A stretch of DNA of 64,000 nucleotides, taken from contig CM120648.1 in the NCBI GenBank assembly GCA_051362555.1, forward strand, positions 14,070,587-14,134,586, given 5' to 3'. The notes under the pieces are model-generated. The model searched no databases, was not told where the DNA came from, and saw only the letters and a program-made list of their open reading frames with translations. The first letter of the stretch is position 1. Every line of letters begins with the position of its first letter. Positions 14,090 through 55,056 of this stretch are shown here, piece by piece. The position numbers and the translations under genes were made by a program. Source of the stretch: Lingula anatina (Eukaryota; Animalia; Brachiopoda).

Positions 14090-14992
14090 AGATGACATCA
14101 ACACCGCTGTATACTTACTGTATAAAGTCCTGCTACTTGCTAAAATATTCGCGATTTTTAGGATGATAATTAATATTTCCTACTTTCAATATAGGCTCTC
14201 GTTGCAATATGGCATCACACATACATTTGTGACACACAAAAACGCACCTGTAATGCGTTTTAATATCCTTTTATCACAGTTGACATCCACACTTTTGTGA
14301 ACTGTATATGTATGTTCGTTTTACCGGCTAACGTCTTCTTGAATTTGGGGTTGCTAATTAATATTTTTTTACCCTCAATATCGGTTCTCGTTGCAATATG
14401 GCAAAACACATGCATTTGTGACACACAAAAGCGTGCCCGGGGTGCTTTTAATAACTTTCTATCAAAGTTGACATCAACACTACTGTGAACTGTATGTATA
14501 TGTTCATTTTACCGGCTATTGTCTGCCCGAATTTGGGGATGTAAATTAATAATTTCATTACTCTCAATATCGGCTCTCGTTGAAATATGGCACCACACAT
14601 GCACTTGTGACACACAAAAACGCGCCCGGGGTGCTTTTAATATACTTTTATCAAAGTTGACATCAACACTACTGGAAACTGTATATATATGTTCATTTTA
14701 CCGGCTATTGTCTGCTTGAATTTGGGGTTGCTAATTAATATTTTTTTACTCTCAATATCGTCTCTCGTAGAAAAATGGCACCACACATGCATTTGTGACA
14801 CACAAAAACGCGCCCGGGGTGCTTTTAATATTCTTTTATCAAAGTTGACATCAACACTACTGGGATTTCTGAATGTCCCTGTAAATATATATGTTCATTT
14901 TACCGGCTATTGTCTGCTCGAATTTGGGGATGTTAATTGATAATTGCATTACTCCCAATATCGGCTGTCGTTGGAAAATGGCACCACACATG
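14090..14992. repeat. Tandem repeat, ~188-bp unit, ~4.8 copies
   Basis: The motif tgacatc recurs near 14093, 14281, 14469, 14657 and 14845; it also generates the repeated ORF text CDTQKRARGAF. Confidence 0.9.
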
Positions 14993-16724
14993 AATCGGCC
15001 GATACATTGCTTTAAAACCAGTTATATATCAGCTCAACATAGATCAATACAATCTTTGAAACGGTAACAAGTATAGACAAACGCCAGAACCCCTTTTAAT
15101 TAGGTTACAAGAAAAAGATACTAAAAACTCGAAACAAATTTCCACGCGTTGACGCAAGCTTATATGCACTCGGAACTACTCGGATGTCTCCGCACTCGAC
15201 AATGACCTCGGACGTGATACGGAGGCATCCATATTTGATTGTTGATTGTTGGGAAGGAACTACTTTCAACCTCGCGCTAATTTAAATCTAATTCTTTCAA
15301 CGCCTGTATCTATTTATCCTTTAAATCATTGTCAATCTTAGTGCATTGTTTGGCAAACTGTAAAGCATCATAAAAATCAGGGGTATTGACAGCCATCTTT
15401 ATGAGCGTAATGATCGATTGAGTGAGAAGGCATTTCCGGCGGACAAAATGCATGGATTTGGTGCATATTTCTCCGCCTATCACATCCGAGGTTAGTATGG
15501 AGCTTGCGGAATGAGCCGAGGATTGCCGATTGAAGCTTATGTGCTCGCAACTGCAAGATGGCGGCAATGCTGTATCATAGCAACCACGAGGGACCGCGAG
15601 AAATTACGTTATCCATGCAATAGAACAAAAGAAAATCACTGAGGCACAGCGCGCGCTACCTTGATAATAAGCTGTTCAGGCTCCCGTGGAGCTATCAAAA
15701 CAGCTTATCTGAGACAATGGGCGAATGTTTACCCGAACGCACATAGCTTCAAAGGAAGATGCCACGTTTCACGTCCTTTCGTTATTATGTCCAAGCTGTT
15801 ATCAAGCCACACAAAAAACGCAAAAGGCAGTTTCCAACACCATGTGTCGCCTATCCTCTCCTCTTTCAGGTAACATGACCACGTTCAGAATGGTCTCCTT
15901 ATGTTTATGGTTTCAAACATGTGAAAGGTACTGGTACAATTATTGCCTAATGGTTTATTTACTTACAAAACCAATCAGTTATTTTCACATTTCTTCATGT
16001 ATTCGGCGACAATTTCATTATAAGCACATTTACTTTCAGTAGATCTACAGAAAAGCCATTTACATGCATTTGGGCACGTCATCCGTATTTCTACTTTCCT
16101 TTATCTTAAGCTGTGGTTTTATCTAAATAATTATTATGAGAAACAATACTGGTGCATACCTAAGCATTTTGCCACCTGCTCACAGAAAAAAACACAGTTT
16201 GCTGAAAACTAACTATTATAAAGTAAAGTAAAGCTATTATAAAGTTCCATGAAGGCAGTCTCCAGAAAATTCTGAAACTCAGGCCGGAAGAGACTGGAGA
16301 AAACTGATAATTCCGGCATCTTTCAGTGTATTATTCGTTTGCTTCATTGGCGATTGATCTTTGAGACACTTACAAATAAGACGTCTGTCAGAGTCTGTTT
16401 TAACAGCAAGGGTGAAGTAAGGGGAGCTGTACAAATGCAAGTGTAACCTACCAAACGTATATGTACTTTACAGGTGGAACGCTTTTTATCTTCATGATCA
16501 GCAATAGCTGTCAGCCAGTCACAACACATATTTATCTATAAAATGTCCCCCAAAAAGCAACACAGCGGTGAAGTAAAATAACTATTTATTGACGTTGTCT
16601 TCGATCGGCTTTGGTTGGTTTTTGTGGTGTTAATAGATTAATGCCGCCATGACCGCCCTGAAAACATTCTAAGTAATGAATACAGTGCGAATCAGCGAGG
16701 TGTGTGTGTGTTATGTTAGAGCAA

Positions 16725-17845
16725 GGGGTCAGCGAGGTTAATGTGGTACACTAGAGAGGAGTCCACGAGCTTAATGTGGTACACTAGAGTGAGGAGTCCA
16801 CGAGCGTAATGTGGTACACTAGAGTGAGGAGTCCACGAGCGTAATGTGGTACACTAGAGTGAGGAGTCCACGAGCTTAATGTGGTACACTAGAGTGAGGA
16901 GTCCACGAGCGTAATGTGGTACACTAGAGTGAGGAGTCCACGAGCTTAATGTGGTACACTAGAGTGAGGAGTCCACGAGCTTAATGTGGTACACTAGAGT
17001 GAGTGGTACACTAGAGTGAGGAGTCCACGAGCTTAATGTGGTACACTAGAGTGAGTGGTACACTAGAGTGAGGAGTCCACGAGCTTAATGTGGTACACTA
17101 GAGTGAGGAGTCCACGAGCTTAATGTGGTACACTAGAGTGAGTGGTACACTAGAGTGAGGAGTCCACAAAGTGTATGTGGTACACTAGAGAGGCCAACAA
17201 GTTGTATGTGGTACACTAGAGTGAGGAGTCAGCGAGGTGTTAGTACAGTACTGTTAGGAGTCAACGAGGTGTATGAGGAACACTAGAGTGAGGAGTCAGT
17301 GTGGTGTTTTTGGTACACTAGAGTGAGGAGTCAGTGAAGTGTATGAGGAACACTAGAGTGAGGAGTCAGTGTGGTGTTTAAGGTGCACTGAAGTGGGAGT
17401 CAGCAAGGTGTATGTGGTACACTAAATTGAGGAGTCAGAGAGGTGTTTTTGGTACACTAGAGTATGGAGTCAACTAGGTGTATGTGTTACACAAGTGTGA
17501 TGGGACAGCAAGGTGTATGTGTTACACTACAACGAGTAAGGTTTAACTGGTAAATAAGAGTGAAGATTCAACGAGTTAAGTGTGGTACACTAGAGTAAGG
17601 AGTCTGTGAGGTGTATGTGGTACACTAAATTGAGAGTCAGAGAGGTGTTTTTGTTACACTAGAGTATGGAGTCAACTAGGTGTATGTGTTACACAAGTGT
17701 GAGGGGATACCAAGATGTATGTGTTACACTACAACGAGAAGTCAGTGAGGTGTATGTGGTACATTAGAGTGAGGAGTCAGTGAAGTGTATGTGGTACAAT
17801 AAAGTGAGGAGTCAGCGAGGTGTACGTGGTACACTAGAGTGAGGA
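16725..17845. repeat. 35-bp minisatellite (aatgtggtacactagagtgaggagtccacgagctt), homogeneous on the left and degenerate on the right
   Basis: Near-identical head-to-tail units to about 17167, diverged units afterwards; no unique spacers. Confidence 0.95.
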
Positions 17846-20800
17846 TCACACCAGGAGGACGAGTGTTCTGTCTGACCCATCCCACGCTTCACTTTGCGTG
17901 ACGTACAGTTTGATAGGGGATACACATGCATATTCTCTCTCGCGCGGCTTTATTCTCACATGGTACATGTATTGGTTGGCTTGTCGAGATGCAGGTGTTT
18001 CCGCACTGCATTACATTTTACTCAAAGATATGGTTTGGTTTTGAATATTTCGTCTAACTACATCGATTAAAATACGGAAGCATGGTGTTGGACTGTTCAT
18101 AGTCTTATCTACATGTAGAACGATGGGCCACACTTTCTTCATTACGCATGTGCTGTCTGTGTAAAGGCCATAATGCCTTGACCTTTCGTCTTTTTTTGTG
18201 TTATCACAGACCAAAGTATATAAATATAGAACAGCATTACAATTGCAACAAAACGATGGTGATCGATAAACGTGCAACCTACGGCCACAGTTTAGTGCCT
18301 GCAATCACAAAATTACGACATGAATGTTTCCTGGCTATTTTCTTTAAGTTAGTGTATCTTTAAGTTAGTGTGTATATATTGTATTGAATGCAATGACTCT
18401 CTAAAGTTTCTGAATCTGTTTTATAGTTACTTGGTTACACATCACTGTTTGTTTATATATCTGTTCATGTTAACATTTATATAAATACTTTAGACTTCTG
18501 TACAAGTGAGTATATCATTCACACTCGATCAGATGTCAGAAACACAAAGCCCTAACTGTTCTTGTGTGTATATTTCAGTTAATCTCTCGACGGCTGGCGA
18601 TGATATATATTATTAAGAGACTCGATTGGTAGGTAAACTTATTGTCACTTCAGGCACATCGTGTCCTCCTAATTGAAAATCTACTAATGCGTTGACACAG
18701 AAAAATGAATTTAAGCGTGCAAATGTAAATAGGCGAACGTGGGTATGAATTATGAATTGCTTCATGGTATCTTTAAAGGACTGCATTTCATATGATGGTT
18801 TATATCAACTCGATGTGCCATGTTGTTTATATTGCATGTGGGTTTCACGTGGTCTCTACAACGGGTCGCATTCTAACCCTCACAATTGGTCAAAAGTACA
18901 TTTATACGTATGTGTGTTGACATTTACATGCGTTTCATTCATTTAGTTTATGAATATAGACGGATTGATGTGCAAATTGTACACTCAAATGAGACGTAGA
19001 AGTATACCTCCTGATGAACCTCTATGGCGTGTACATGTACATGTATTGGCTATATAAAGTGGTTATTTAGCTTTTCATTAAACATACTTGAAAGAAACAA
19101 GAGTTCATATTTGCTTCAGTCTGTTAACGTAAGACATTTTTTTTGTCATTGAACATATATTATCCTATTTACCACACCCTTCAGAAAACTCAACCAAATT
19201 GGCATCATCTGTAGAAAAAAATCATCTGGTCTTATCGACGTAACCATGGTGCTAACCGCTTTGGCTTTCACTTAGCAAGGGTACTGTCGTGTTAACTGAT
19301 GATATTAACGAGGTCACCGCTAAATTGCTAAATCATGGCATTAACCAACGAAAATGTTGATTTGATATATGTAAATGTTGGGTATTATGTTAGCCAGACA
19401 CCTTGAGTTAAACAGGAAGTATTAACTCTATTCCGAGCTCAGGCCGCTGGGCCAACATCCTACTGCTACATGATAATGGCGCCTCTCCTAAGACAATGAA
19501 TTCCCAACATGGCATATAAGCAGGGGTGAAATCATTGAGAAATCACGGTGTGACAGGGATGGTAGTCCTAGGATAGGATGTCCAGCGTCCCATATCAAGG
19601 TTGTTGAACTCCGAAGCCGAAAATACGTTGAGTTTTACACACAGTACACTTAAAATAATATCTGCACCAAATAACTACATTTTTTGGGTTTCTTCGTCGA
19701 AAAATGTCACCCAAGCAAAGTAATGGATTATGGTCCATAGCGGACTGTCGTACCTGTCACATCGCATGTCACAACGCATGCAAAATCTGGATAGGATATA
19801 AAAGCAAAACAGTTCAGTTATTAAATCCGTTTGATCATTAGCTTTGCTTGTAGATGCAGTGTGAATAACGTTCTATTTCCTTCGTCTGATTATTCTTTAT
19901 TCGCATCTCCTGAGATTAATTTTCTGCATATCATATATCAACTGTTTTCAGTACCGTAGCAACTGGCTGGTAAGCAATGAGACAAACCGCAAACTGGCTA
20001 GTGGGTGGAGTGGGGGTGGGGGTGGATGTCTACTTTACCCTTAACATGAAACTGACTATAAACACTTATCTAAATATATAAGGAGTTTAAAGGCAAATGA
20101 AACTTTTAAAACGTAATAATAAGTTATTTATATAACCTTTTCGTAAACAAACTACATAATTTGTAAGAAGCATTCACATCTATGTTCGATATTGTGAAAC
20201 AGACCATATTCATCATTCATAATAACTCATTTTCTCCTGTTTTTCCTTATTGCTCAGGGTCACTTTTACCTTCCCATTTATTCAAAACCGCGTACAAAAA
20301 CATGTTTCCTAGATTACTGTTAATTTAATTCGACCGGACTGAATTTTTCCTGTCTCTAGCTATTTGATGGCAACAATTATCCTCGGTGTGTTATCTCAAG
20401 ATACGATGTTTGTTATCAAAAACGCATTGTAATAAAATTGAAATATGTTGTTAACATAAAATATACAAGTTCTATAAAGCCTACTGGTAATCAAGCACAA
20501 AGCCAGCTTAATTTTGCAGCTAAATTACCACTCTTGTCGTTATTAAAAAAGAAAAAAAACATCGGGGTAATCTTTTATTTTCAGTAATATGATAAAATAT
20601 TGCTGTATTATGTGTTGGATTGTCAAGTAATATGTGTTGATATAAATTTGCATCTTATGTTCCGTAATGTATGTAGGAGGGAGGACGGGAGTGAAATAAA
20701 TAGATGGAAAAAAACACAAAATTAAGACAAAAATAATACACTATGACACAATAGGTCAATAACATATATGCACATTTTCAATCAGCATTCAATAAATATT

Positions 20801-26906: not shown

Positions 26907-27276
26907 ATAGAATTATTGTTAAAAATCCTATCAAATATCCCTGTGAACAATTTATTACTTGTCAGCGATATAGAAACCCAGCAATCGGTTTCTGTCGAAA
27001 GTGGGTTTTAGGCAATTGCAAGGGTGTGTGGTTTCGCCATATATATTGTAACGAACGGGGCTCCAATAGCTCTACACCGATGCCGACAAAAATTTACCAG
27101 TCCAACTTTAGTTGCCGTTCTAGAGCCGTTTAAAGACGAAAAGATGCCAAATACCCCATGATTTTATACAAAGAAAGAAACGTTAGATTTGTACCGCTGT
27201 ACGGGAAAGAATCAACAATGACGTTCCAACCGTGTCGACGTGCCGTCAGAAAGTGTGACCGCGCGACCTGCGGTCA

Positions 27277-27299
27277 TGACGTCACGGTCGCTATAAATA
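27277..27299 (+). promoter_or_regulatory. LTR core promoter: palindromic CRE (TGACGTCA, 27277-27284) and TATA box (TATAAATA, 27292-27299)
   Basis: Consensus motifs ~230-250 bp into the LTR, also present in the 3' LTR. Confidence 0.7.
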
Positions 27300-28414
27300 A
27301 CCGCTCAGCTGATCGTTAGCGGCGTCTTTCAAGTTCTTCAAGTTGAAGCGGGGAAGAAAGAAAGTATCTTTGAGTGACAGTCATAAAGCACAAGAGAGAG
27401 ACAAAAAGTGAGTGAAACGGGCTGCGGGTAGCCCTCGGGCTACCCGACGTAGTCGGGAAAAATTGTGAAGAATTTTCTTTTCGAAGATTAGTCTATTTTT
27501 TTTTTTTTTTTTTTTGTAGTATTTTGGCTGACAGTTATGTCAGCTACATGTATTGTTAGTTTTTAGCGAGTTTCTTAACGCAATCCTGTAACTGCATTCA
27601 CCGTGACGCGCTCCGGAGGACAAGTGGTGGCTGTCAGATCATGGGATCCCTTGGTTGCAGATGTTTAGGATCCTGGCCAAGGAAGCCGCTGCGGCATGGA
27701 CGATTTTGGGTGAAAGGCTGATCGGGTCCAAGACGTCATGTAGGAGGCGCCGTCGACAGCTCGGAGCTGAAGGGAAAATGCCAGCCCGAGTGCGCAGTGT
27801 TCCCCCGTGTATGATCGGGGCAGTGTTATGTTCTTATTTTGTTTTAGTTCGGTCCGCAAGGACGTGTCCCTTTGCATGCAGCTACCGGAAAGCGAAAAGA
27901 GACAGTAATGGTGAAGGACGTCCTAACCCTCGATCACGGTGCTCCCCTAGGAAACCTCCGCTCCCGCCGAGGCGAGACTGGGAACTTCCCATGGGACAGA
28001 CGGGTCCAGGGCGTAGATAATGCAGGAAATGCGCCACGGAAGATTAACCTTGCTCTTTCAGAGCTAACAGTCACAGGTTCCGGGTCCGCGGGGTTTACTG
28101 CCGCCAAGATGTTCACTGATTGAACTGAAGGCCTCAGCGTTCCCCTACGATCTCGCCGCCCGTGGGTGGAAAAAGTGCCAGGACTGAGTTGTTGTGTGCA
28201 TGAACCGTACCCGTGAGATTTTGCTGGTGGAGAGTGTCGCCGTGTCCACTTCAGAGTCGAGTCGTCGAACCAGGTTCACAGACCGAGGGTACAGTCTGTG
28301 AATCCCATTCAGGTTCCGTTCCCGCGGCTGCGGCCGTGTGATGCGTACCGAGCTCCTCTGCCATTGCGAATAACAGCCGGAATGCTGAGAAACTGAACAG
28401 ACGCCCACCATGAA

Positions 28415-28745
28415 GATATCGTCGCCATCCCCTAGATGACGCCGCCGCGTTCAATGGTCGTCGTTATGCCGTCCCCAGGCGTACGATATCGTCGCCATCC
28501 CCTAGATGACGCCGCCGCGTTCAATGGTCGTCGTTATGCCGTCCCCAGGCGTACGATATCGTCGCCATCCCCTAGATGACGCCGCCGCGTTCAATGGTCG
28601 TCGTTATGCCGTCCCCAGGCGTAAGATGTCGTCGCCATCCCCTAGATGACGCCGCCGCGTTCAACGGTCGTCGTTATGCCGTCCCCAGACGTAAGATATC
28701 GTCGCCATCCCCTAGATGACGCCGCCGCGCTCAACGGTCGTCGTT
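28415..28745 (+). repeat. 70-bp CpG-rich tandem array (~4.7 copies) inside the LTR; mirrored at 35899-36229
   Basis: Units start at 28415, 28485, 28555, 28625 and 28695 (gatatcgtcgccatcccctagatgacgccgccgcg...). Confidence 0.95.
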
Positions 28746-28746
28746 T

Positions 28747-28852
28747 CTACCATGAAAATAGAAGCTGATTTGCGCTACGCTACCATGAAGATAGAAGCTG
28801 ATTTGCGCTACGCTACCATGAAGAAAGATGCTGATTTGCGCTACGCTACCAT
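28747..28852 (+). repeat. 33-bp tandem array (3+ copies) inside the LTR; mirrored at 36231-36336
   Basis: ctaccatgaa(a/g)a(t/a)aga(a/t)gctgatttgcgctacg x3. Confidence 0.95.
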
Positions 28853-29090
28853 ACCATGAAAAACGTTGCTCGATTTTATTACAAACTCTATGGCTTTAGG
28901 CCTTGTATATATCTCTTGAAATATCTCTTTTATTGAAAGCAAATTGGTGTATAATAATAATATTTGAACTGTAACCATATGCCTTTGTCGTTAATTTCGA
29001 AGGACCGGGATATACTTTCCCTGTTTCAACATCATATTCCCACGTCGCGTCCGGGGTCGTGCGCCGACGCGGCGACCTCGCGCGTTACAT

Positions 29091-29108
29091 TGGTGGCAGC
29101 GATGGGAT
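29091..29108 (+). other. Primer binding site, tRNA-Leu (AAG/TAG type)
   Basis: TGGTGGCAGCGATGGGAT, 1 nt after the LTR; complementary, with one mismatch, to the metazoan tRNA-Leu 3' end ATCCCACCGCTGCCACCA (recalled from memory). Confidence 0.85.
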
Positions 29109-29201
29109 TGTCCTTCGAAATGTGCTATGGTTACTTGGTCATGAATGGATGATAATTATTATCATTATTTTTTTTAATATCTCTTGTCAGAAGAAGTCAG
29201 A

Positions 29202-30206
29202 ATGGAAAATGATAAGGTAGACAACTTTGACCAGTCAAGTGAGAGTGAGGTCATCCTGAATCTACGAGACCACGAGGGTCGCCACGCAGAGATAGACGGT
29301 GAGAGTGATACTTTGTTAGCGGGTCCATCACCTAGAAAGAGACTGGTGAGTTCTCCATTCCCACCTAGAGACGTATTTCCAGGCAGCACAGGAGTCCAGA
29401 AAGGAAGGCCAAGCGTAATTCCCGACCGCTACGATGGAAGCAGTCCGTGGTCCGATTACCTGGCGCACTTTGAGGGCTGTGCGATCATCAATGGTTGGAG
29501 CAGTTATGAGAAGTCAGCATTTCTCGCTGTCAGTTTGAAGGGAGAAGCTCAAGCCATTCTAAGTGATGCCCAAGCCGGAGGGAAAAGACTGTCCTACAAA
29601 GATTTGGTAGACTTATTACAGAGAAGGTTTGGTCCGGGAGAGGGAGCAGAAATCTTTGTGGCAGAGCTGCGTCATCGTCGAAGAAAACCAAATGAGAGCC
29701 TGCGAGAATTGGGACAAGCTATCCGAAGACTCACTGCCCTAGCCTATCCAGAGTTGAATGTGATGTCACAGGATCGCCTGGCCCGGGTACATTTCCAGGA
29801 AGCCGTGGTGAGCAAAGAATTGAAATCATGTATTTTTCAGGCTCATTGTAAGACTCTGGAAGATGCAGTGACGGTGGCAGCAGGCATGGAGTCATTTCTG
29901 GATGCAGAAAGACTGAGCGAGGCTGGTAAACGGCAACTGCGGGTAGTACAGAAGACTGAAGAAGACGAGACCCAGGTGAAAAGACTGGAGGATGAAGTCC
30001 ATGCTTTAAGAAGAGAGCTTGCCGACCTCAGAAGATCCAAGCCTGTCTCATTCTTCGGTAAGCAGCCATTCAGGAGGGCAAAGGGAGTAATCTGCTACAA
30101 CTGTCAACAGGAAGGTCATTTTGCCAGAGAATGCCCTCAACCAGCCAATGAGGGAAACGGCCAGTGGTCCACCCGAGGGACCGGGAGAAGACCCAATACT
30201 CACTGA
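29202..30206 (+). CDS. gag: Gag (capsid domain plus CCHC zinc knuckle), ~334 aa
   Basis: ATG at 29202 in agaATGg context; PDRYDGSSPWSDYLAHFE capsid-type motif; CYNCQQEGHFAREC knuckle. Confidence 0.93.
   Translation: MENDKVDNFDQSSESEVILNLRDHEGRHAEIDGESDTLLAGPSPRKRLVSSPFPPRDVFPGSTGVQKGRPSVIPDRYDGSSPWSDYLAHFEGCAIINGWSSYEKSAFLAVSLKGEAQAILSDAQAGGKRLSYKDLVDLLQRRFGPGEGAEIFVAELRHRRRKPNESLRELGQAIRRLTALAYPELNVMSQDRLARVHFQEAVVSKELKSCIFQAHCKTLEDAVTVAAGMESFLDAERLSEAGKRQLRVVQKTEEDETQVKRLEDEVHALRRELADLRRSKPVSFFGKQPFRRAKGVICYNCQQEGHFARECPQPANEGNGQWSTRGTGRRPNTH
30152..30158 (+). other. -1 ribosomal frameshift slippery site G GGA AAC
   Basis: X XXY YYZ heptamer in the gag frame; the pol (-1) frame opens immediately after TGA at 30149-30151; a ggtcc/ggacc stem starts ~8 nt downstream. 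Confidence 0.8.
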
Positions 30207-33200
30207 AGGTCCCAGTCAAAGAAGGACGAACAAATGTACATAATGTTTCGAATGGGTTATTTATTGTTGGTAAAGTTGAAAATGTTGATGTTTTATTTTT
30301 AGTTGACACAGGGTCTTCAGATACCTTTTTAAGCGTTGAGTGTTACAGAAAAATTGCCGTTGACAAGAAAACAGAACTCCGTCAAATGACAGAACAAGTA
30401 CGGCAAGCCGATGGCAAGCCGCTACCCGTATTGGGCCGAATGAAAGTATCCATTGACGTGCAGGATCAACCCACTGAGTTAGACGTTATTGTGGCGGACA
30501 TACAAAACCAAGGTATTTTGGGCCTAGATTTTCTGGTGTCAACAGCAAGCGTTCTAGACTTTCAAGGTTTCAATCTTCACTGTGAGGGACAAAAGCTGCC
30601 CTGCCTAGATCAAAATGCAGAGCCATTTTGTGCCCGCGTCCATATCAAACAGACCATCCGTATCCTGCCAGGTCATGAAATAGTGCTACCTGCGGTACGC
30701 GGACAGACAAGCGGTCTTGCAGAGACGACCCAGGGACTTATGGAACCCCTGGAAGAAGGTGGACTAGCATCACGAGGACTGATGGTGGCCAGACTTCTGG
30801 TTGATCTCACTGCAGAAGAGTTCCCAGTTCAGGTTTTCAATCCGGGGGAAGAAGCAGTGATTCTGTACAAGGGGACTACAGTGGGTACTCTTTCTACTGT
30901 GGAAGATAAGGACATCGCAGTGATCAAACGAGGGGGACTTAAGGTACACACTCTCCAAAAGACAAATGAGAAAATGGTCCTCCCTGAGTTTCTCCTTGAT
31001 TTGTTGGAAAGAAGCACGAGCTGTCTAGACCGACAACAGACAGAGGCCATTAAACAATTGCTTACAGAGTTCCAAGATGTCTTTGCAAAAGATGACTTCG
31101 ACCTTGGCTGCACGGGCATCGTACAACATTCTGTTAACACTGGAGATGCAACACCTATTCGTCAGGGATACCGAAGGTTGCCTAGATCACAGCAAGATGA
31201 AGCTGATAAACATGTGCAAGAGATGTTAGAAAGGGGCGTCATAGAGCCGTCTGCAAGTCCGTGGGCATCACCGATCGTGCTGGTGACCAAGAAAGATGGG
31301 TCTACACGATTTTGCGTTGACTACCGGAAACTGAACTCTGTCACCGTGAAAGATTCGTACCCTCTCCCGAGAATTGATGACACATTTGACGCACTGTCGG
31401 GGACAGAGTGGTTTTCTACATTTGATTTGGCTAGTGGCTACTGGCAGGTGGAATTGGATGAAGATGCCAAGAGGAAATCAGCGTTTGCTGTCCGAGGCGG
31501 GCTTTTTCAATGGAAGGTTATGCCGTTTGGGATGTGCAACGCGCCAGCCACCTTTGAACGACTCATGGAGCAAGTGATGAGTGGGCTCCACTGGAAAATT
31601 CTCCTCGTGTACTTGGACGACATCATAGTCTTTGGAAAAACGTTCGAAGAGGAGGTAGAAAGGGTCAAAGAGGTCTTCCGTCGTCTCCGAGAGGCCAAGA
31701 TGAAGTTGAAGCCAAAGAAATGCCACCTGTTTCAGCCAGAAGTGAAGTACCTCGGTCACGTTGTCTCCAAGCATGGGGTTAGAACAGACCCAGACAAGAT
31801 CGAGGTGATAAAGGAGTGGAAAACCCCCGGAACGGTAACGGAAGTTAGAAGTTTTCTGGGGTTAGCGTCCTATTACCGGAAGTTCATAAAAGGGTTTGCC
31901 AATATAGCCAGACCCCTACACCGTTTGACAGAGAAGGGAAATCTCTTCCTGTGGAATGAAGAGTGTGAAGACTCTTTTCAAGAACTGAAGCAACGACTTA
32001 TTTCTTCCCCCATTCTTGCTTATCCAAGCATTGAAGGTCGCTACATATTAGATACAGACGCCAGTAATTTTGGTATGGGTGCAGTGTTGTCTCAAGTCCA
32101 AGAGGGACAAGAAAAAGTTATAGCCTATGCTAGCAGGGCCTTCACAAAAGAAGAACGAAACTACTGTGTCACAAGAAAAGAATTTCTGGCAGCAATTCAT
32201 TTCATGAAGCATTTTCGCAGCTTCCTGTATGGACAAGATTTTACTTTGCGTACCGACCATGCAGCCCTGACTTGGCTCCTCAGAATGAAAGATGCCGAGG
32301 GACAGTTGGCCCGGTGGATACAAGTAGTAGAAGAGTACCAACCTAACCTAGAACATCGAGCTGGAAGGAGTCATGGCAATGCGGATGGGCTATCCCGTTA
32401 CCCTTGCCATCAGTGTGGACGAGAAGAAGAACCCGAACAACAGGGCCGTGTGATGAAGAGACGCTGGATTCGCCAGGATCAGATGCACCCTCAACCAGCT
32501 CACATAAGAAGTATCTCCATTGCCCCTTTGGTGAAATTAGAAGAGATGGCCGAGGCCCAGGGAGAGGATGCAGATATCCGACCAGTTCTAGTAGCCATGC
32601 GTAAAGGATCTGGACCATTAGAGTATGGCCAGGAACCATGGTCTCCAGCCATCCGCACCCTTGTAGCTAAATGGGACCAGTTGTCTTTAGAATCTGGAGT
32701 GTTATGCACAACAGAAGAATCAAACGATGGATCGGTGACAAGACCCCTAGTGATTGTCCCTAAGGTATATCGAAAGATGATCCTGGAGCATTTCCATTCG
32801 CATCCTACTGCCGGTCACATGGGTGCAGAGAGAACATTAGCCAGGATTCAGGAACGATACTGGTGGTATGGTGTAGCCAATGATGTAAGGTCCTGGTGCA
32901 AAAATTGCAGAACTTGCCAAAAGCAACAGACATATGGAAGAAAACCTAAGGCGCCATTACAACAGTTTTTCGTGGGAGCTCCTATGGAACGGATAGGAAT
33001 GGACATCTTGGGACCATTAAACCAGAGTAACCGAGGTAACCGAGTTATCTTGGTGGTATGTGATTATTTCACCAAGTGGGCAGAAGCATTTCCATTGCCA
33101 AATCAAGAGGCCAACACAATAGCCAAAGTCCTAGTGGAGGAGGTCTTTACAAGGTTTGGGACACCTGGCAGCATCCACTCTGATCAGGGTAGAAATTTTG

Positions 33201-33826
33201 AGTCTACAGTTATGCAAGAGGTCTGTGCCATGATGGGTATAAACAAGACCAGGACCGCTCCCTTTAACCCCAAGTCAGATGGCCTTGTGGAACGCTTCAA
33301 TCGGACCCTAATAAACGGCATAACTAAGTTTCTAGAACCCAGCAGGAACCAGAAGGACTGGGATGAGAAGATTCCGCTTTTCCTAATGGCATACAGAAGC
33401 TCTAGACATTCCAGCACTGGCGAAACGCCCAACATGATGATGCTGGGAAGAGAAGTAGACTTACCCGTCCACGCAATGATTGAAGAGCCACCCTCGGCAG
33501 ATCAAAACCAGACAGATTACGCATACAATCTTCGAGAAAATCTGACAGAAGTATGGAGGAGAGCGACGGAGAAACAACAGAAGAGTGCTGTAATTCAGAA
33601 ACGAAATTACGATTTAAGAGTCCACGGAGACGTGTTCAAGAAAGGCGACTTGGTGTGGTACTGCAATCTCACGAAGAAGAAAGGTGTCAGTCCAAAGCTT
33701 CAACCCAAGTGGCTAGGTCCCTATGAGGTCGTGGAGAGATTGTCCACCCAAATTTATCGAATACAGCTGAATTCCAGAAGTCCACCTAGAGTAGTACACT
33801 ACGATAATTTGAAAGCGTGTTACTAG
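30152..33826 (+). CDS. pol: Pol polyprotein: aspartic protease, reverse transcriptase, RNase H, integrase (expressed as a Gag-Pol fusion)
   Basis: FLVDTGS (PR); YPLPRIDD, MPFG, YLDD (RT); DTDAS, TDHAAL (RH); H-x6-H...CRTC, DILGP, SDQG, VERFNRTL and GPY (IN); no stops; no chromodomain. Confidence 0.97.
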   Translation, partial: GKRPVVHPRDREKTQYSLKVPVKEGRTNVHNVSNGLFIVGKVENVDVLFLVDTGSSDTFLSVECYRKIAVDKKTELRQMTEQVRQADGKPLPVLGRMKVSIDVQDQPTELDVIVADIQNQGILGLDFLVSTASVLDFQGFNLHCEGQKLPCLDQNAEPFCARVHIKQTIRILPGHEIVLPAVRGQTSGLAETTQGLMEPLEEGGLASRGLMVARLLVDLTAEEFPVQVFNPGEEAVILYKGTTVGTLSTVEDKDIAVIKRGGLKVHTLQKTNEKMVLPEFLLDLLERSTSCLDRQQTEAIKQLLTEFQDVFAKDDFDLGCTGIVQHSVNTGDATPIRQGYRRLPRSQQDEADKHVQEMLERGVIEPSASPWASPIVLVTKKDGSTRFCVDYRKLNSVTVKDSYPLPRIDDTFDALSGTEWFSTFDLASGYWQVELDEDAKRKSAFAVRGGLFQWKVMPFGMCNAPATFERLMEQVMSGLHWKILLVYLDDIIVFGKTFEEEVERVKEVFRRLREAKMKLKPKKCHLFQPEVKYLGHVVSKHGVRTDPDKIEVIKEWKTPGTVTEVRSFLGLASYYRKFIKGFANIARPLHRLTEKGNLFLWNEECEDSFQELKQRLISSPILAYPSIEGRYILDTDASNFGMGAVLSQVQEGQEKVIAYASRAFTKEERNYCVTRKEFLAAIHFMKHFRSFLYGQDFTLRTDHAALTWLLRMKDAEGQLARWIQVVEEYQPNLEHRAGRSHGNADGLSRYPCHQCGREEEPEQQGRVMKRRWIRQDQMHPQPAHIRSISIAPLVKLEEMAEAQGEDADIRPVLVAMRKGSGPLEYGQEPWSPAIRTLVAKWDQLSLESGVLCTTEESNDGSVTRPLVIVPKVYRKMILEHFHSHPTAGHMGAERTLARIQERYWWYGVANDVRSWCKNCRTCQKQQTYGRKPKAPLQQFFVGAPMERIGMDILGPLNQSNRGNRVILVVCDYFTKWAEAFPLPNQEANTIAKVLVEEVFTRFGTPGSIHSDQGRNFESTVMQEVCAMMGINKTRTAPFNPKSDGLVERFNRTLINGITKFLEPSRNQKDWDEKIPLFLMAYRSSRHSSTGETPNMMMLGREVDLPVHAMIEEPPSADQNQTDYAYNLRENLTEVWRRATEKQQKSAVIQKRNYDLRVHGDVFKKGDLVWYCNLTKKKGVSPKLQPKWLGPYEVVERLSTQIYRIQLNSRSPPRVVHYDNLKACY

Positions 33827-33874
33827 GTGGACGTACAATTAAAATGTAAATTCTATTTTTTTGTCACGTTTCAG

Positions 33875-34410
33875 TGCCCTTGCTGACCTGTCGTTTATGC
33901 CAAGCCTCTTTCACTCAAAGAGACAAGAAGAGGAAACATGAGCAAGAAATCCATGCATTCTGTAATCTGTGCCACAGGATACTGATAAACAAGGACTACC
34001 TGGAAAAACATCTGCAAAAGCGGCATCCTCTACCCACTGTACAAATTGCACACATCAATAGCCCCTTGGTAGTGAAGGTCAGCCTGGAAGAAGAGGCATC
34101 TTTGGAACAATCACCAGAGGAGTCAACACCTGCGCTAGACCCACCTGCAGTGAAGGAGGAAAAAGAAGGCGTGCAGTTGAAGCCAATACTACCCAAAGTT
34201 TACAGCAGACCAGCCCCTGGAGGGAAGAACATCAAATTCTCAGATCCCCCAGAGTCACCTCCCACAGAGTGGACAGATGAAGAAGAAGATGATGATGAAG
34301 ACGACGATCCAGATGATGAAGAGCCTCTGAGACCCAAGAGGTTGATAATTGTTAGAAGAATTAAGTACCCAGATGGGAGATCTGAACTCCGAAAGGAGTA
34401 TCACTATTGA
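33875..34410 (+). CDS. ORF3: 178-aa accessory protein with two C2H2 zinc fingers and a Pro/acidic region; probably translated from a spliced mRNA
   Basis: C-x2-C-x12-H-x4-H twice; acidic tract DEEEDDDEDDDPDDEE; no in-frame ATG; preceded by a polypyrimidine tract and cag (33851-33874). Confidence 0.8.
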
Positions 34411-34515
34411 GAATTTTGTATGAAATTCTGAATGTCATTAAATAATTGAACATTTTCTTTTTGGCTTCTGTTGTTCCTGTGAAGAAACTAATTTTGATTC
34501 GGGAGAATCAATTTT

Positions 34516-34531
34516 AAAAGGATGGGGGCAA
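34516..34531 (+). other. Polypurine tract
   Basis: aaaaggatgggggcaa abutting the 3' LTR. Confidence 0.85.
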
Positions 34532-36573
34532 TGTAACGAACGGGGCTCCAATAGCTCTACACCGATGCCGACAAAAATTTACCAGTCCAACTTTAGTTGC
34601 CGTTCTAGAGCCGTTTAAAGACGAAAAGATGCCAAATACCCCATGATTTTATACAAAGAAAGAAACGTTAGATTTGTACCGCTGTACGGGAAAGAATCAA
34701 CAATGACGTTCCAACCGTGTCGACGTGCCGTCAGAAAGTGTGACCGCGCGACCTGCGGTCATGACGTCACGGTCGCTATAAATAACCGCTCAGCTGATCG
34801 TTAGCGGCGTCTTTCAAGTTCTTCAAGTTGAAGCGGGGAAGAAAGAAAGTATCTTTGAGTGACAGTCATAAAGCACAAGAGAGAGACAAAAAGTGAGTGA
34901 AACGGGCTGCGGGTAGCCCTCGGGCTACCCGACGTAGTCGGGAAAAATTGTGAAGAATTTTCTTTTCGAAGATTAGTCTATTTTTTTTTTTTTTTTTTTG
35001 TAGTATTTTGGCTGACAGTTATGTCAGCTACATGTATTGTTAGTTTTTAGCGAGTTTCTTAACGCAATCCTGTAACTGCATTCACCGTGACGCGCTCCGG
35101 AGGACAAGTGGTGGCTGTCAGATCATGGGATCCCTTGGTTGCAGATGTTTAGGATCCTGGCCAAGGAAGCCGCTGCGGCATGGACGATTTTGGGTGAAAG
35201 GCTGATCGGGTCCAAGACGTCATGTAGGAGGCGCCGTCGACAGCTCGGAGCTGAAGGGAAAATGCCAGCCCGAGTGCGCAGTGTTCCCCCGTGTATGATC
35301 GGGGCAGTGTTATGTTCTTATTTTGTTTTAGTTCGGTCCGCAAGGACGTGTCCCTTTGCATGCAGCTACCGGAAAGCGAAAAGAGACAGTAATGGTGAAG
35401 GACGTCCTAACCCTCGATCACGGTGCTCCCCTAGGAAACCTCCGCTCCCGCCGAGGCGAGACTGGGAACTTCCCATGGGACAGACGGGTCCAGGGCGTAG
35501 ATAATGCAGGAAATGCGCCACGGAAGATTAACCTTGCTCTTTCAGAGCTAACAGTCACAGGTTCCGGGTCCGCGGGGTTTACTGCCGCCAAGATGTTCAC
35601 TGATTGAACTGAAGGCCTCAGCGTTCCCCTACGATCTCGCCGCCCGTGGGTGGAAAAAGTGCCAGGACTGAGTTGTTGTGTGCATGAACCGTACCCGTGA
35701 GATTTTGCTGGTGGAGAGTGTCGCCGTGTCCACTTCAGAGTCGAGTCGTCGAACCAGGTTCACAGACCGAGGGTACAGTCTGTGAATCCCATTCAGGTTC
35801 CGTTCCCGCGGCTGCGGCCGTGTGATGCGTACCGAGCTCCTCTGCCATTGCGAATAACAGCCGGAATGCTGAGAAACTGAACAGACGCCCACCATGAAGA
35901 TATCGTCGCCATCCCCTAGATGACGCCGCCGCGTTCAATGGTCGTCGTTATGCCGTCCCCAGGCGTACGATATCGTCGCCATCCCCTAGATGACGCCGCC
36001 GCGTTCAATGGTCGTCGTTATGCCGTCCCCAGGCGTACGATATCGTCGCCATCCCCTAGATGACGCCGCCGCGTTCAATGGTCGTCGTTATGCCGTCCCC
36101 AGGCGTAAGATGTCGTCGCCATCCCCTAGATGACGCCGCCGCGTTCAACGGTCGTCGTTATGCCGTCCCCAGACGTAAGATATCGTCGCCATCCCCTAGA
36201 TGACGCCGCCGCGCTCAACGGTCGTCGTTTCTACCATGAAAATAGAAGCTGATTTGCGCTACGCTACCATGAAGATAGAAGCTGATTTGCGCTACGCTAC
36301 CATGAAGAAAGATGCTGATTTGCGCTACGCTACCATACCATGAAAAACGTTGCTCGATTTTATTACAAACTCTATGGCTTTAGGCCTTGTATATATCTCT
36401 TGAAATATCTCTTTTATTGAAAGCAAATTGGTGTATAATAATAATATTTGAACTGTAACCATATGCCTTTGTCGTTAATTTCGAAGGACCGGGATATACT
36501 TTCCCTGTTTCAACATCATATTCCCACGTCGCGTCCGGGGTCGTGCGCCGACGCGGCGACCTCGCGCGTTACA
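34532..36573 (+). repeat. 3' LTR (2042 bp)
   Basis: Matches the 5' LTR; the only difference noticed is T19 versus T20 in the poly-T run. Confidence 0.97.
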
Positions 36574-36954
36574 ATATGTTTAAGCTATTCCTGGAATTCA
36601 TCATCACTGGTTTATCACAACTTTTAAGGTAATTTTCAAAACTGCATCATAAACCCTGCACAGAAATTGAAAATGAATATTAAGCAACCGTGGTGTATTA
36701 CTTATTTTTCAACCCTTGGGTATCCACGCTAATTCTATTCCCTTTTCTACATCGGATCAGTTTAAGTTACACAGCACTTCGGACACAATGCTCTTTCGAT
36801 ATATAAATTAAGTCCCCGGCGCTTCGTTTACATAGTCGAGCTGCCACTCCTATAGGCCCAATAGTCGAGCCCTGCAACTCAACTACTAGGGGTTTTTCGC
36901 CCTCACTAAGCATTTGTTAAATGTCAAACAACGATGATGTCAGTTTAAGAGTAA

Positions 36955-37169: not shown

Positions 37170-38061
37170 TATGACTAACAGAAAATCACAATGGACAGTA
37201 AAATCAAAGGCGGAGGTTGTATTAATAAGACTATTTATACCAGTATTATACTGATATTGCGCCTCTTCGGTACCTTCTGCTGTTTGTTTTGGTGGACATT
37301 TTGATTTTTAGTGACAGTAAAATGCTTATAGATTAAATGTAGTCAATTATCCCAATGTAATTAGGCAGTAACAAATGCTTAGAGAGCAATGGGGATATAG
37401 CTAATGAACAAACCAAATAGTTGTACTAAAACCACAAATTCCAGACTGGGAGACGGTTACATCTGTGGGATGAGTCACTGACAGTACTCTAGCATGAATT
37501 AAGCAGCAGTGACAATTCTAAGAACAAAATCAAAATATTTCTGCTGTAGGCTTTATGAATAATTGATCTTTCCAAAGTTGTTATTCTGCGGCGGAGGACT
37601 CCCCCGGGACATTCTGCCCTGCAACGCCGGGAAATGTAATTAGAATGGATTGAAACGAACGTTAATGTAACCTGCCGCAGTTCTGGTGAGGGTTTAAGAA
37701 CTTGTTCACGTCTTTTATCTTTATCCGATCTGAGTTGGACTGTGTAACGTTTTATGGGCCATTATGGTCACTCATCATCAGAACTGTGGACTTGATTTCA
37801 GTCTTTGCTTTCATTACACCTAGCTAGCTACAAAGACGTTTTAAACCGGTCCCAAACTAGCCGAAGTTTAATCTGTCCAAGGTAAATGATTTTGCAACGT
37901 GTTACCTAAACTGGCGCGGTGTATTACTGTTATAATTAATTAAATTGTCGGCGATATGGTACAGAGGCTGTACATATTTCCCTCCAATGCACGTTTACCC
38001 CGCGTGCAATGTAGTACCTGGCAGTCTGTCACATTGGAAATGGTTATTGATAGATTTTAAG

Positions 38062-39873
38062 TATCCCATGCAAACGCCTTGAAAAACATTTTTATACATT
38101 TTTATTTTATTAAAATGATTATTGAGAGTCTTTGATGAATAAATAGTTCAAACGAGGAAGATTTATTGAGGTTTCCGTACGTCACAGTGTAGGGGAGACC
38201 GGGGCTAGTTGGCCCAGTTAGACACTTTTGGAAATGTAGAGCCAACTAGGAGTGGGTTAGAGTAACAAAACCGGTTTCAAAGTAAGCCCCATGAACTAAG
38301 CTACGTACGCAACGTCATTATTTTTCGAATATAATGCCAGGTAGCTCACAATTTGACAAAAAACGCAGTTGATGTCAAGGGGGCCAACTTGCCCCGCCAT
38401 GGGGCAAGTTGGCCCTAGGGTCGGGGCAAGTTGGCCCCCCTATACGAAAATGAAGTATATATCCCATGTAAACCCCTTGAAATACATTTTTATAAATTTT
38501 TAATTTATTTAATTGATTTTTGAGAGTCTTTGATGAATAAACAGTTCAAATGAGGCAGATTTATTGAGGTTTCCGTACGTCACGTTGTTGGGGGGGGGGG
38601 GGTATGTGTTGCAAGAACCAAAATATCTATCAATAAAATGTATTTTGTCTTAATTAAGAATAAATAAATAATGGCATAAAGAAGGTTTTTAATGAATGAA
38701 AACGAATAATAAATTTTCTTTTTAAAAGAAAGTAACAAATTCAGTTGTAAACCATTGAGTTTGTTTCAATAATGGTCTCTAGCTAGGGAGGGGTGGAAAA
38801 TCCCCTTGGGGCCACATATAACACTATAAATACAAAGGGAATCCCCTTACAATGAATTAAGGCAAAATAAATGTTTTTCTACGGAAAGTCCAATGGATTT
38901 GCTTTTTAATACTTACAATAAACAGAATATTTCTAATATAAATTTTCAAAAAGACACCAGAGAGAAAATTTTAAAAATCAATCAGACGGTAATAGACACC
39001 GGCAAGCTTTGTCAATTTCACCAACTTGTTTATTTCAAACAGCGTTGCGCGCAAAGGTTTGTAGGTAATATGAGGGTCCAACTTGCCCCGAGTCAAGGGG
39101 GCCAACTAGCCCCGGGTGCACATTATTTATTTTAAAGGATGGTAGCCATTTATGGTGCTAGAATGAGCAACGATGATACATCTATGTGAAACTTGAAACA
39201 ATGAGCTTCAGTTTGATGCCCTATACATATCTTATATTCGATCAAAAGCCTATGAAAATAGATTTTTAAATCTCTTTAACAAAATTACTTTCAGGTGCAA
39301 AAATCGTTTATTTCGACTCACCGCTTAAGTAAAACTTTTTAACGTCCGACACTTCCTTAGCATTGTAGGCTACGGTCACTTTGCAAGAGTATGTGGCCAA
39401 TTTTTTTACCTCGTAGTTACTTTTTCATAAATTGACGGGGGGCCAACTTACCCCGGGGTCCAACTAGCCCCGGTCTCCCCTATGTGTTGCAAGAATCAAA
39501 ATATCTATCAATAAAATTTGTTTTGTTTTAATTAAGAATAAATTAATAATGGTATAAAGCAGGTTTTTAATGAATGAAAACGAATAATAAATTTTAGTTT
39601 TAAAAGAAAGTAACAAATTCAGTTTTAAACCATTGAGTTTGTTTCAACAATGGTCTCTAGCTCTGTTGCGCGCAAAGGTTTGTGGGTAATATGAGGGTCC
39701 AACTTGCCCCGAGTCAAGGGGGGCAACTAGCCCCGGGTGCACATTATGGTGCTAGAATACCATTTATGGTGCTAGAATGAGCACCGATAATACATCTCTG
39801 TAAAACTTGAAACAATGAGCTTCAGTTCGATTTACCAACTTACCCCGGGGTCCAACTAACCCCGGTGTTCCCT
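38062..39873. mobile_element. Older, left-truncated family B copy split by insertion of a younger family B element
   Basis: 38062-38189 repeats 38460-38587; 39483-39873 repeats the rest of the family B sequence, ending in a decayed TIR (ccaactaaccccggtgttccct). Confidence 0.75.
38192..39480. mobile_element. Non-autonomous TIR element, family B (TA TSD, pogo/Tc1-mariner type)
   Basis: Perfect TIRs ggggagaccggggctagttgg / ccaactagccccggtctcccc, TA flanks, repeated internal ggggcaagttgg motifs. Confidence 0.88.
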
Positions 39874-54500: not shown

Positions 54501-55056
54501 GGCCTTCAAATGTCAGCGGGGATCAGTGGGTGCTGCTTCCACACCCAAATATAGTAATGCTTGTATTTTTTAAAGGTGAAAGTTAAAATTAAAAGTAAAC
54601 CGGTCAAGTTTTAGTTTCTGTTGGGAAAATGAAAGCTAAAGCTCTTAACTGACCATAATATTAATTGGTTAGATATGCTTCGGGTGGACACTTGGGAGAA
54701 GGGACATGGGGTCTGTAGCTTCTGGTGAGCTAAATAATAGCTGGTTATTGTATTCCATCAATCTCAACGATGAATTTTTGCTTCTTTCTAGTAAATGGAC
54801 AATTTTACGCCAAAAACGACTTTTATGCATAAGACTGAAATTATGCGGAATCGGGTTCCATCTGAACATGAACATTAAACCATACTGATTTTTTTTTCAA
54901 AGTTCACTGACTTAATGGCGTCCCTCATCATGGATCTTGACAAGTTACATTTATGTCAGTTATTAATGCATATGTGGAATATTGAGTTCGAGCTAAATCA
55001 TTTAATATGGCCAGATATAGTTTTGGAGGCCATCTTGGAAAACAGATCACCAGGTA

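What the first reader, a model, noticed from the sequence alone, without database searches (positions are those of the whole stretch)
33875..34410. Gypsy element carries a non-Env third ORF: twin C2H2 zinc fingers plus acidic domain, a candidate self-encoded nuclear regulator
Seen: an intact 178-codon ORF between pol and the PPT. It has two C-x2-C-x12-H-x4-H fingers joined by only two residues (CRLC..HEQEIH-AF-CNLC..HLQKRH), a Pro/Glu-rich middle, a D/E tract and a compact C-terminus (RLIIVRRIKYPDGRSELRKEY). It also has a SUMO consensus (VKEE), a PxVxI motif (PTVQI, a variant of the HP1-binding PxVxL) and a KPILPK motif. There is no signal peptide or transmembrane helix. Known: the ORF in this position of Ty3/gypsy errantiviruses is normally Env; trans-acting regulators are known from complex retroviruses (Tax, Tas/Bel1) and from plant VANDAL transposons (VANC anti-silencing proteins). 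Inference: a DNA/RNA-binding transactivator or anti-silencing factor acting on the element's own LTR. The short motifs could be chance matches.
Basis: partly seen in the sequence, partly recalled or inferred. Interest (0 to 1): 0.85.

Follow-up and report, generated by a model that had tools for sequence, protein, structure and literature searches.

The report
Retrotransposon's own twin zinc-finger gene
A very young, intact gypsy retrotransposon carries, where retroviruses keep their envelope gene, an extra reading frame for a two-zinc-finger protein that has no start codon of its own and likely gains one by splicing; many related elements carry a similar gene, which likely regulates the element from inside the nucleus, though this is untested.

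Summary
The ORF and both C2H2 fingers are real (twin fingers in 0 of 5000 shuffles; two fingers fold at pLDDT >90). It sits behind a strong splice acceptor (33874). The first LTR donor (27408) ends an ATG-free exon in A, so splicing would create A|TG, giving exactly 178 codons; no RNA read tests this. It is no one-off: 16 of 49 integrase relatives with at least 700 nt after pol carry a twin-finger ORF there, often behind an acceptor, sometimes joined to TatD DNase or in frame with the integrase tail. Homology of this ORF to those is not shown beyond the finger pair. The SUMO and PxVxI motifs are at chance level. The two-residue linker argues against classical tandem DNA reading. Best reading: a spliced nuclear accessory regulator, most likely acting on the LTR (0.4); rivals are CERV/Rev-like RNA export and integration tethering. 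Ten paper searches found no description; this scan noted similar genes before on other DNA.

The parts
27043..27046 (.). Target-site duplication ATAT (left)
   Evidence: same 4 bases at 36574-36577
27047..29089 (+). 5' LTR, 2043 nt, TG...CA; identical to the 3' LTR but for one base in a poly-T run
27277..27284 (.). TGACGTCA palindrome (CRE consensus, name recalled), 8 nt before the TATA box
   Evidence: 4 matches in the window (2 are the LTR copies), 0.79 expected
27292..27297 (+). TATAAA, the only one in the LTR; predicted promoter, start near 27320
27408..27413 (+). Predicted 5' splice site (AAA|GTGAGT), first and best-scoring donor in the LTR; the exon before it has no ATG and ends in A
   Evidence: not shown by RNA
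28413..28852 (.). Tandem arrays in the LTR: 70 nt x 4.8 and 33 nt x 3.2
29091..29108 (+). Primer-binding site (TGG start; tRNA-Leu type by recall)
29166..29190 (+). Predicted 3' splice site 11 nt before the gag ATG
   Evidence: score 10.8, equal to the ORF3 acceptor
29202..30206 (+). gag, 334 aa, CCHC knuckle
30152..33826 (+). pol (PR-RT-RH-IN), unbroken, in the -1 frame to gag with a G GGA AAC slippery-type heptamer at 30152-30158; integrase ends 3 residues after its last conserved strand
33850..33874 (+). Polypyrimidine tract and CAG: predicted 3' splice site of ORF3
   Evidence: score 10.8, reached before 30 of 1095 flank ATGs
33875..34410 (+). ORF3 exon: TG plus 177 codons plus stop; no ATG in frame
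33889..33954 (+). C2H2 finger 1; basic helix (KKRK), Lys in place of the usual Leu
33961..34026 (+). C2H2 finger 2, two residues after finger 1
34276..34322 (+). D/E tract (16 acidic of 20 residues) after a Pro/Glu-rich low-confidence region
34342..34404 (+). Predicted C-terminal beta-hairpin, basic
   Evidence: pLDDT about 90 in a single-sequence model
34437..34442 (+). ATTAAA followed by a T/GT-rich stretch: possible poly(A) signal before the PPT; the LTR has no AATAAA or ATTAAA
34516..34531 (+). Polypurine tract
34532..36573 (+). 3' LTR, 2042 nt
36574..36577 (.). Target-site duplication ATAT (right)

Best explanation
ORF3 is a non-Env third reading frame of an intact, very recently inserted gypsy element, likely translated from a spliced RNA, and its twin-finger protein is likely a nuclear regulator that would bind the element's own LTR chromatin and help keep it transcribed. 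Steps: (1, shown) the frame, both fingers, the acceptor and the lack of an ATG. (2, inferred, about 0.55 for this donor, about 0.85 for splicing of some kind) the ATG-free LTR leader exon, which ends in A at 27407, is joined to TG at 33875 and so makes the start codon; the same donor would also serve the gag acceptor at 29190. (3, shown in relatives) a twin-finger ORF in this slot recurs across deep branches and is conserved at protein level within subfamilies. (4, inferred) the finger pair acts as one compact basic nucleic-acid or chromatin-binding unit, not as a classical tandem reader, and the Pro/Glu and D/E regions recruit host activators or displace silencing; the fully spliced RNA would be made first, giving positive feedback as in complex retroviruses. 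Odds that it is a functional accessory gene: about 0.85; that the function is LTR transcription or anti-silencing: about 0.4.
For: Element intact with LTRs identical but for one base and a TSD. Twin fingers 0 of 5000 by chance; two beta-beta-alpha fingers at pLDDT >90 over residues 1-50. Of the 10 donors scoring 2.5 or more upstream, only 27408 has no ATG between the predicted start and the donor, and it ends in A. Precedent: env of the springer subclade is spliced from an AU dinucleotide (PMC12992720, passages). Relatives: strict finger pattern on the sense strand after pol in 11 of 49 loci, antisense 1 of 49, shuffles 0.1; twin-finger ORFs in 16 of 49 plus L051; acceptor score 8 or more before the ORF's ATG in 8 of 14, against 50 of 658 post-pol control ATGs and 176 of 1095 window-flank ATGs; PPT plus TG after the ORF in 6 of 13 examined; subfamilies of the ORF follow integrase clades. 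The partners found in relatives act on DNA: TatD DNase in L053, L063, L059 and the integrase tail in L058, L077. Low-complexity Pro/Ser or acidic regions follow the fingers. A CRE-type palindrome abuts the TATA box.
Against: No function is tested. The linker is 2 residues, against 6-10 in relatives and about 7 in classical DNA readers (recalled); DNA-bound tandem fingers fit the model badly (rmsd 6.7-9.8 A), and the top row is the ubiquitin-binding TAX1BP1 tandem (E 0.012, TM 0.39, rmsd 4.7), though the model's inter-finger angle is uncertain (pTM 0.58). This ORF has no blastp match (E 0.01) to any of 17 related finger ORFs, and their profile scores it 18 bits, below many host fingers (up to 38 bits), so common descent is unproven. 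33 of 49 loci show no twin-finger ORF. The only tested protein in this slot, CERV, exports RNA (PMC10309623). Three phase-1 donors in gag (29239, 29299, 30058) could make Gag-ORF3 fusions instead. No sibling copy was available, so dN/dS of this ORF itself is unknown.
Confidence: 0.4

Rival explanations
1. ORF3 is a CERV/Rev-like RNA regulator: made from the default spliced RNA, it would bind unspliced element RNA and let it escape splicing or leave the nucleus.
For: The element has a donor about 90 nt after the predicted start and acceptors at 27519, 27847, 29190 and 33874. Splicing to gag would remove the PBS, so packaged RNA must keep its intron. A G+C stem follows the donor inside the intron (z -1.78 for the region, weak). 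CERV, in the same slot of Cer1, does this job with a Cys-rich loop (PMC10309623, abstract, passages and section 15). The short linker does not suit tandem DNA reading.
Against: No RG/RS-rich RNA-binding tract in this ORF; the acidic tract fits activation or histone binding better (inference); partners in relatives act on DNA.
Confidence: 0.22
2. The finger pair is an integration tether or pre-integration-complex adaptor that would bind chromatin on one side and integrase on the other, replacing the integrase tail.
For: The window's integrase has almost no C-terminal tail (3 residues), whereas most close pol relatives have 47-221. In sister loci L058 and L077 the fingers lie in frame with the integrase tail. 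9 of 16 finger loci have tails under 20 residues, against 8 of 33 others. An earlier scan note (e1-7276517) reports such a fusion in another genome.
Against: Short tails also occur without fingers, and long tails with them; kin share the trait, so these counts are not independent. L077 also has its own acceptor and ATG, and pol is broken in L058 and L077, so the fusion may be incidental. No donor was found that would fuse a whole integrase to ORF3 here.
Confidence: 0.18
3. ORF3 is a protein adaptor that counters a host defence, for example by binding ubiquitin or a silencing factor through the fingers, without binding the element's nucleic acid.
For: The top fold row is the ubiquitin-binding TAX1BP1 tandem, fifth in the wide search (Z 3.4, rmsd 5.2). 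Finger ORFs diverge much faster than integrase, as in host conflict.
Against: These fold scores are at background level; no Pfam UBZ family matches; SUMO and PxVxI motifs are chance-level.
Confidence: 0.12
4. ORF3 is a recently captured host exon with no function for the element; it is intact only because the copy is young.
For: It begins like an internal exon, with an acceptor and no ATG. No homologue ties it to the other finger ORFs. Identical LTRs mean that intactness alone says little.
Against: No host source gene: 0 hits among 77 candidates and only generic multi-finger proteins among 32 hits in 1.84 billion representatives. The same slot holds twin-finger ORFs in 16 of 49 relatives. A leader exon supplies the missing base in frame.
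Confidence: 0.08

Closest known systems
CERV of C. elegans Cer1 (PMC10309623; abstract, passages, section 15 read)
   Same: [quoted passage not shown]
   Different: CERV is 517 aa, shares gag-frame exons, has a C4-type loop and is confined to nematodes; this ORF is about 178 aa with two C2H2 fingers and an acidic tract. CERV's export role is shown; nothing is shown here.
env-F of insect errantiviruses, springer subclade (PMC12992720 and PMC4276936, passages read)
   Same: Third ORF after pol on a spliced subgenomic RNA; in the springer subclade the start codon is completed by the splice, as proposed here.
   Different: No signal peptide-like or transmembrane segment and no Env match here; the product looks nuclear.
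Regulators of complex retroviruses (HTLV Tax/Rex, foamy-virus Tas, HIV Tat/Rev) and plant VANDAL VANC (all recalled, not read)
   Same: Element-encoded trans-acting factor from a 3' spliced gene, acting on the element itself.
   Different: No sequence or fold link; the analogy rests on position and anatomy.
Classical two-finger C2H2 activators such as yeast ADR1
   Same: Best PDB sequence match (E 0.001); C2H2 pair followed by acidic and Pro-rich regions.
   Different: Linker of 2 residues; finger 1 lacks the conserved Leu; ADR1 fingers superpose at rmsd 8.1 A.
Chromovirus chromodomain at the integrase C-terminus (mentioned in PMC12440569, passages read)
   Same: Extra reader module placed after integrase; in L058 and L077 the fingers are in frame with the integrase tail.
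   Different: In the window the module is a separate frame behind a stop and an acceptor, and it is a C2H2 pair.

Membership tests
Ty3/gypsy (Metaviridae) LTR retrotransposon | TG...CA LTRs, TSD, PBS and PPT | tested here: met
Ty3/gypsy (Metaviridae) LTR retrotransposon | gag then PR-RT-RH-IN order | tested here: met
Errantivirus Env | Third ORF on a spliced RNA | tested here: inconclusive
   acceptor and donor predicted; RNA depth too low
Errantivirus Env | Transmembrane anchor and fusion-protein homology | tested here: not met
   hydropathy maximum 1.02; no Env family in Pfam to E 1
Classical (Kruppel-type) tandem C2H2 DNA-binding protein | Cys2His2 ligands and beta-beta-alpha fold | tested here: met
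   Pfam zf-C2H2 20.5 bits, under cut-off
Classical (Kruppel-type) tandem C2H2 DNA-binding protein | Canonical inter-finger linker of about 7 residues (recalled) | tested here: not met
   2 residues
Classical (Kruppel-type) tandem C2H2 DNA-binding protein | Sequence-specific DNA binding | not testable with these tools
   needs EMSA or SELEX
CERV | C4-type Cys loop, H-M-G domains, shared gag exons | tested here: not met
   C2H2 pair and a much shorter protein; no direct alignment to CERV was run
CERV | Needed for export of unspliced RNA | not testable with these tools
   bench test
Tax/Tas/VANC-type transactivator or anti-silencing factor | Raises transcription or removes silencing of own LTR | not testable with these tools
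   no sequence link
Post-pol twin-finger ORFs of related gypsy elements (defined here) | Sense ORF after pol, before PPT, N-terminal finger pair, acceptor in front | tested here: met
Post-pol twin-finger ORFs of related gypsy elements (defined here) | Specific sequence homology to the other members | tested here: inconclusive
   no blastp match at E 0.01; profile 18 bits against 13 for the best of 1000 shuffles, but host fingers score higher

The most novel reading that the evidence does not exclude
A large, old radiation of animal gypsy elements are 'complex' retrotransposons: in the env slot they carry a spliced, fast-evolving twin C2H2 module that targets the element's own DNA or RNA and is coupled to swappable effectors (acidic activation tract here, TatD nuclease or the integrase itself elsewhere). 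Transposons would then use the same fold with which hosts silence them, in reverse, and this copy would switch it on with a start codon that exists only after splicing.
Probability: 0.4. Interest if true: 0.8.

Novelty: new variant of a known kind. Interest (0 to 1): 0.6.

Why it matters
Most non-Env ORFs of LTR retrotransposons have no known function (stated in PMC10309623), and among the papers read here CERV is the only one tested. A recurrent C2H2 pair in this slot gives a small, expressible protein and a matched LTR with which to ask whether animal retrotransposons encode their own transactivators, RNA-export factors or targeting tethers. C2H2 proteins are known as host repressors of such elements; an element-encoded version would add a counter-move. 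ATG-less exons like this one are missed by ORF callers, so the class is probably under-annotated.

Tried and rejected
No whole genome is held, so siblings, copy number and dN/dS of this ORF could not be had. RNA: no RNA holder listed; 8 of 9 same-species runs were laid. laid 20 reads (8, 12, 0, 0), mostly on LTR, gag and pol, with no joints. (85% likeness) laid 1633 reads, all but 6 under 95% alike, piled on the D/E tract with unrelated loose ends: off-target acidic-protein transcripts, rejected as evidence. Protein searches: none at E 0.01 (102-326 aa only); 32 generic finger or composition hits (8 of 32 read). tblastn of ORF3 against the 80 loci: best E 0.003, on an acidic tract. Viral contigs: no relative in 3 scans. 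Single-sequence fold was poor (pLDDT 58.6). Fold searches gave no match at E 0.001 or Z 5. The Atlas does not hold this ORF; a finger ORF from another branch (P0199) gave unnamed clusters at 0.95 and C2H2 clusters. Rfam: 0 matches. Rejected: stop read-through or a donor right after the pol stop (wrong frame); the strongest gag donor, 29346 (phase 0, meets a stop three codons into the exon); the two out-of-frame ATGs at 33897 and 33938 (short frames); SUMO and PxVxI motifs. The tree is the quick version; the careful search did not finish. Splice scores are home-made from recalled consensus frequencies. Literature: searches found no description; PMC6238403 (passages; 'zinc' 0, 'orf' 0 occurrences), PMC12440569 and PMC13228809 (passages) do not cover it. 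Repbase reports, GyDB, subscription papers and all supplements were not seen and may note such ORFs.

Full report
1. The element. The finding lies in a complete gypsy element at 27047-36573. The LTRs are 2043 and 2042 nt, identical but for one base in a poly-T run, flanked by ATAT on both sides, with a PBS after the 5' LTR and a PPT before the 3' LTR. gag (29202-30206, CCHC knuckle) and pol (30152-33826, PR-RT-RH-IN) are unbroken. The insertion is therefore very young, and intactness of ORF3 alone proves little. The closest named Gag relatives are from sea urchins, starfish and a hemichordate at 36-45% identity; the best integrase relatives reach 56%. The host is probably a marine invertebrate (inference); no genome is held.

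2. The observation. The frame 33850-34410 is open for 186 codons. Both C-x2-C-x12-H-x4-H fingers and the 2-residue linker are there. In 5000 dinucleotide shuffles of the pol-LTR spacer an ORF this long arose 33 times and twin fingers never. With an alignment of 15 related finger pairs, AlphaFold2 builds two abutting beta-beta-alpha fingers at pLDDT above 90. The middle is low-confidence and the C-terminus a predicted beta-hairpin. There is no transmembrane segment. The SUMO, PxVxI and ILPK motifs arise in 35%, 16% and 3.6% of residue shuffles and are not shared by related ORFs (1, 5 and 0 of 17), so I set them aside.

3. How it would be translated. The frame has no ATG. Its first bases are a polypyrimidine tract and CAG ending at 33874, among the four best acceptor-like sites of the element, and the exon begins with TG in phase 1. 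Of 10 upstream donors scoring 2.5 or more, only this one has no ATG before it; three gag donors (29239, 29299, 30058) would give Gag-ORF3 fusions and remain possible. The same donor would serve the acceptor at 29190 and spare gag a leader with dozens of ATGs (47 from 27320 into the start of gag). A splice-completed start codon is known for env of the springer subclade (PMC12992720, passages). RNA could not test it: 20 reads and no joints in four runs, and only off-target reads at the acidic tract in four more.

4. Relatives. ORF3 has no detectable homologue, so I fetched 80 loci by integrase similarity, 38-53% identical (the best 80 of 536, all metagenome contigs, hosts not named). Of 49 with at least 700 nt after the pol stop, 11 carry a strict C2H2 pattern on the sense strand, 1 on the antisense strand, 0.1 expected. 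By inspection 16 of the 49 carry an ORF with an N-terminal finger pair, plus L051 with less flank. A two-finger pattern fits 14 of the 16; L052 and L057 deviate, and the second finger of L038 is doubtful. L024, L058, L059 and L075 have one or a degenerate finger; the rest show none, and some loci are near-duplicates. A PPT and TG follow the ORF in 6 of 13 loci examined, which places it inside the element. An acceptor scoring 8 or more precedes the ORF's ATG in 8 of 14 loci, against 50 of 658 and 176 of 1095 control ATGs. Three loci (L038, L073, L080) have no ATG before the fingers; L080 has a strong acceptor 9 nt before the first Cys. On the integrase tree the trait needs 9 changes against 16.5 for shuffled labels (0 of 500 as low; near-copies add to this), spread over several deep branches; the window's element is a long branch with no close kin (quick tree). 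ORF3 subfamilies match integrase clades, and within them pS is 0.74-0.87 against pN 0.39-0.55 in 7 of 7 pairs (local alignments favour conserved parts). One clade adds a TatD DNase (L053, L063, L059). In another the fingers are in frame with the integrase tail (L058, L077). Against unity: the window's ORF matches none of the 17 by blastp, and their profile scores it 18 bits, above shuffles (13) but below host fingers (to 38). The shared features are slot, architecture and acceptor, not proven descent.

5. Mechanism. Shown: frame, fingers, splice-like signals, recurrence in relatives. Inferred: a spliced RNA, a nuclear protein, action on the element. I favour LTR transcription or anti-silencing (0.4): finger pair plus acidic and Pro-rich regions is activator anatomy, partners in relatives act on DNA, and a CRE-type palindrome abuts the TATA box. 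The linker forbids the usual tandem wrap: DNA-bound finger arrays fit at 6.7-9.8 A and no fold match passes E 0.001 or Z 5, so binding would be by a compact unit or by finger 1's basic helix. CERV/Rev-like control of unspliced RNA (0.22) fits the splice map and the one tested precedent (PMC10309623). Integration tethering (0.18) fits the missing integrase tail and the fusions, but tail length and fingers are only loosely linked (9 of 16 against 8 of 33 short tails). A defence-countering adaptor (0.12) and a functionless captured exon (0.08) are left.

6. Known and new. It is a true Ty3/gypsy element, not an Env, and not a classical tandem DNA reader by its linker. It works most like a complex-retrovirus accessory gene; the closest tested case is CERV, which differs in size and fold. 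Ten full-text searches found no description of C2H2 third ORFs in animal gypsy elements; Repbase, GyDB, subscription papers and supplements were not seen. This scan has noted similar genes on other DNA: a finger plus RS protein in a sea-urchin element and a two-finger cassette fused to integrase, and fungal finger-JmjC genes. These are unchecked notes; one led me to the CERV paper. No note matches this sequence.

7. Verdict. A real, probably functional, undescribed kind of accessory gene in a known slot: new variant of a known kind, interest 0.6. The function is open and directly testable.

Noticed in passing
L053:7372-9000, L063:5393-7342, L059:4000-7284: The ORF after pol joins zinc fingers to a TatD DNase domain (Pfam E 2e-38, 9e-31, 3e-30). 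A search for TatD with gypsy found 0 papers.
   Followed up: partly
L030:5261-6064: ORF after pol with a weak GDSL/SGNH hydrolase match (E 0.053), in the branch next to the TatD carriers.
   Followed up: partly
L058:3540-4208, L077:1194-1997: Fingers in frame with the integrase C-terminal tail in two sister elements; pol is broken upstream in both.
   Followed up: partly
window 33790-33826: Integrase stops 3 residues after its last conserved strand, while most close relatives have a long tail ending in an Arg-rich PxRY-like motif.
   Followed up: partly
window 27496-27519, 27823-27847, 28061: Further acceptor-like sites inside the LTR; the few RNA reads on the LTR copy lie downstream of the first of them. 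The leader may be spliced in several ways.
   Followed up: no
window 28413-28852: The 70-nt LTR repeat carries a TGACG core flanked by G+C-rich bases in each copy, reminiscent of Tax-response repeats (recalled); candidate binding sites.
   Followed up: no
window 27607-28020: 137-codon frame in the LTR with an internal ATG at 27661; no Pfam match.
   Followed up: partly
window 38058-39831 and 55048-56098: Long inverted repeats (88-96%) about 15-17 kb apart, with no ORF of 130 codons between them: possibly a large non-autonomous DNA transposon or two opposed copies of a repeat.
   Followed up: no
window 16654-17889 and 14174-14992: 35-nt and about 189-nt tandem arrays.
   Followed up: no
L027:5577-7139: Two ORFs after pol that look like a THAP finger and a Harbinger-type transposase (my reading, not scanned): probably a neighbouring DNA transposon.
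   Followed up: no
L039:7989-9537: Two long ORFs after pol, one Cys-containing and one acidic, with no Pfam match: another kind of third gene.
   Followed up: partly
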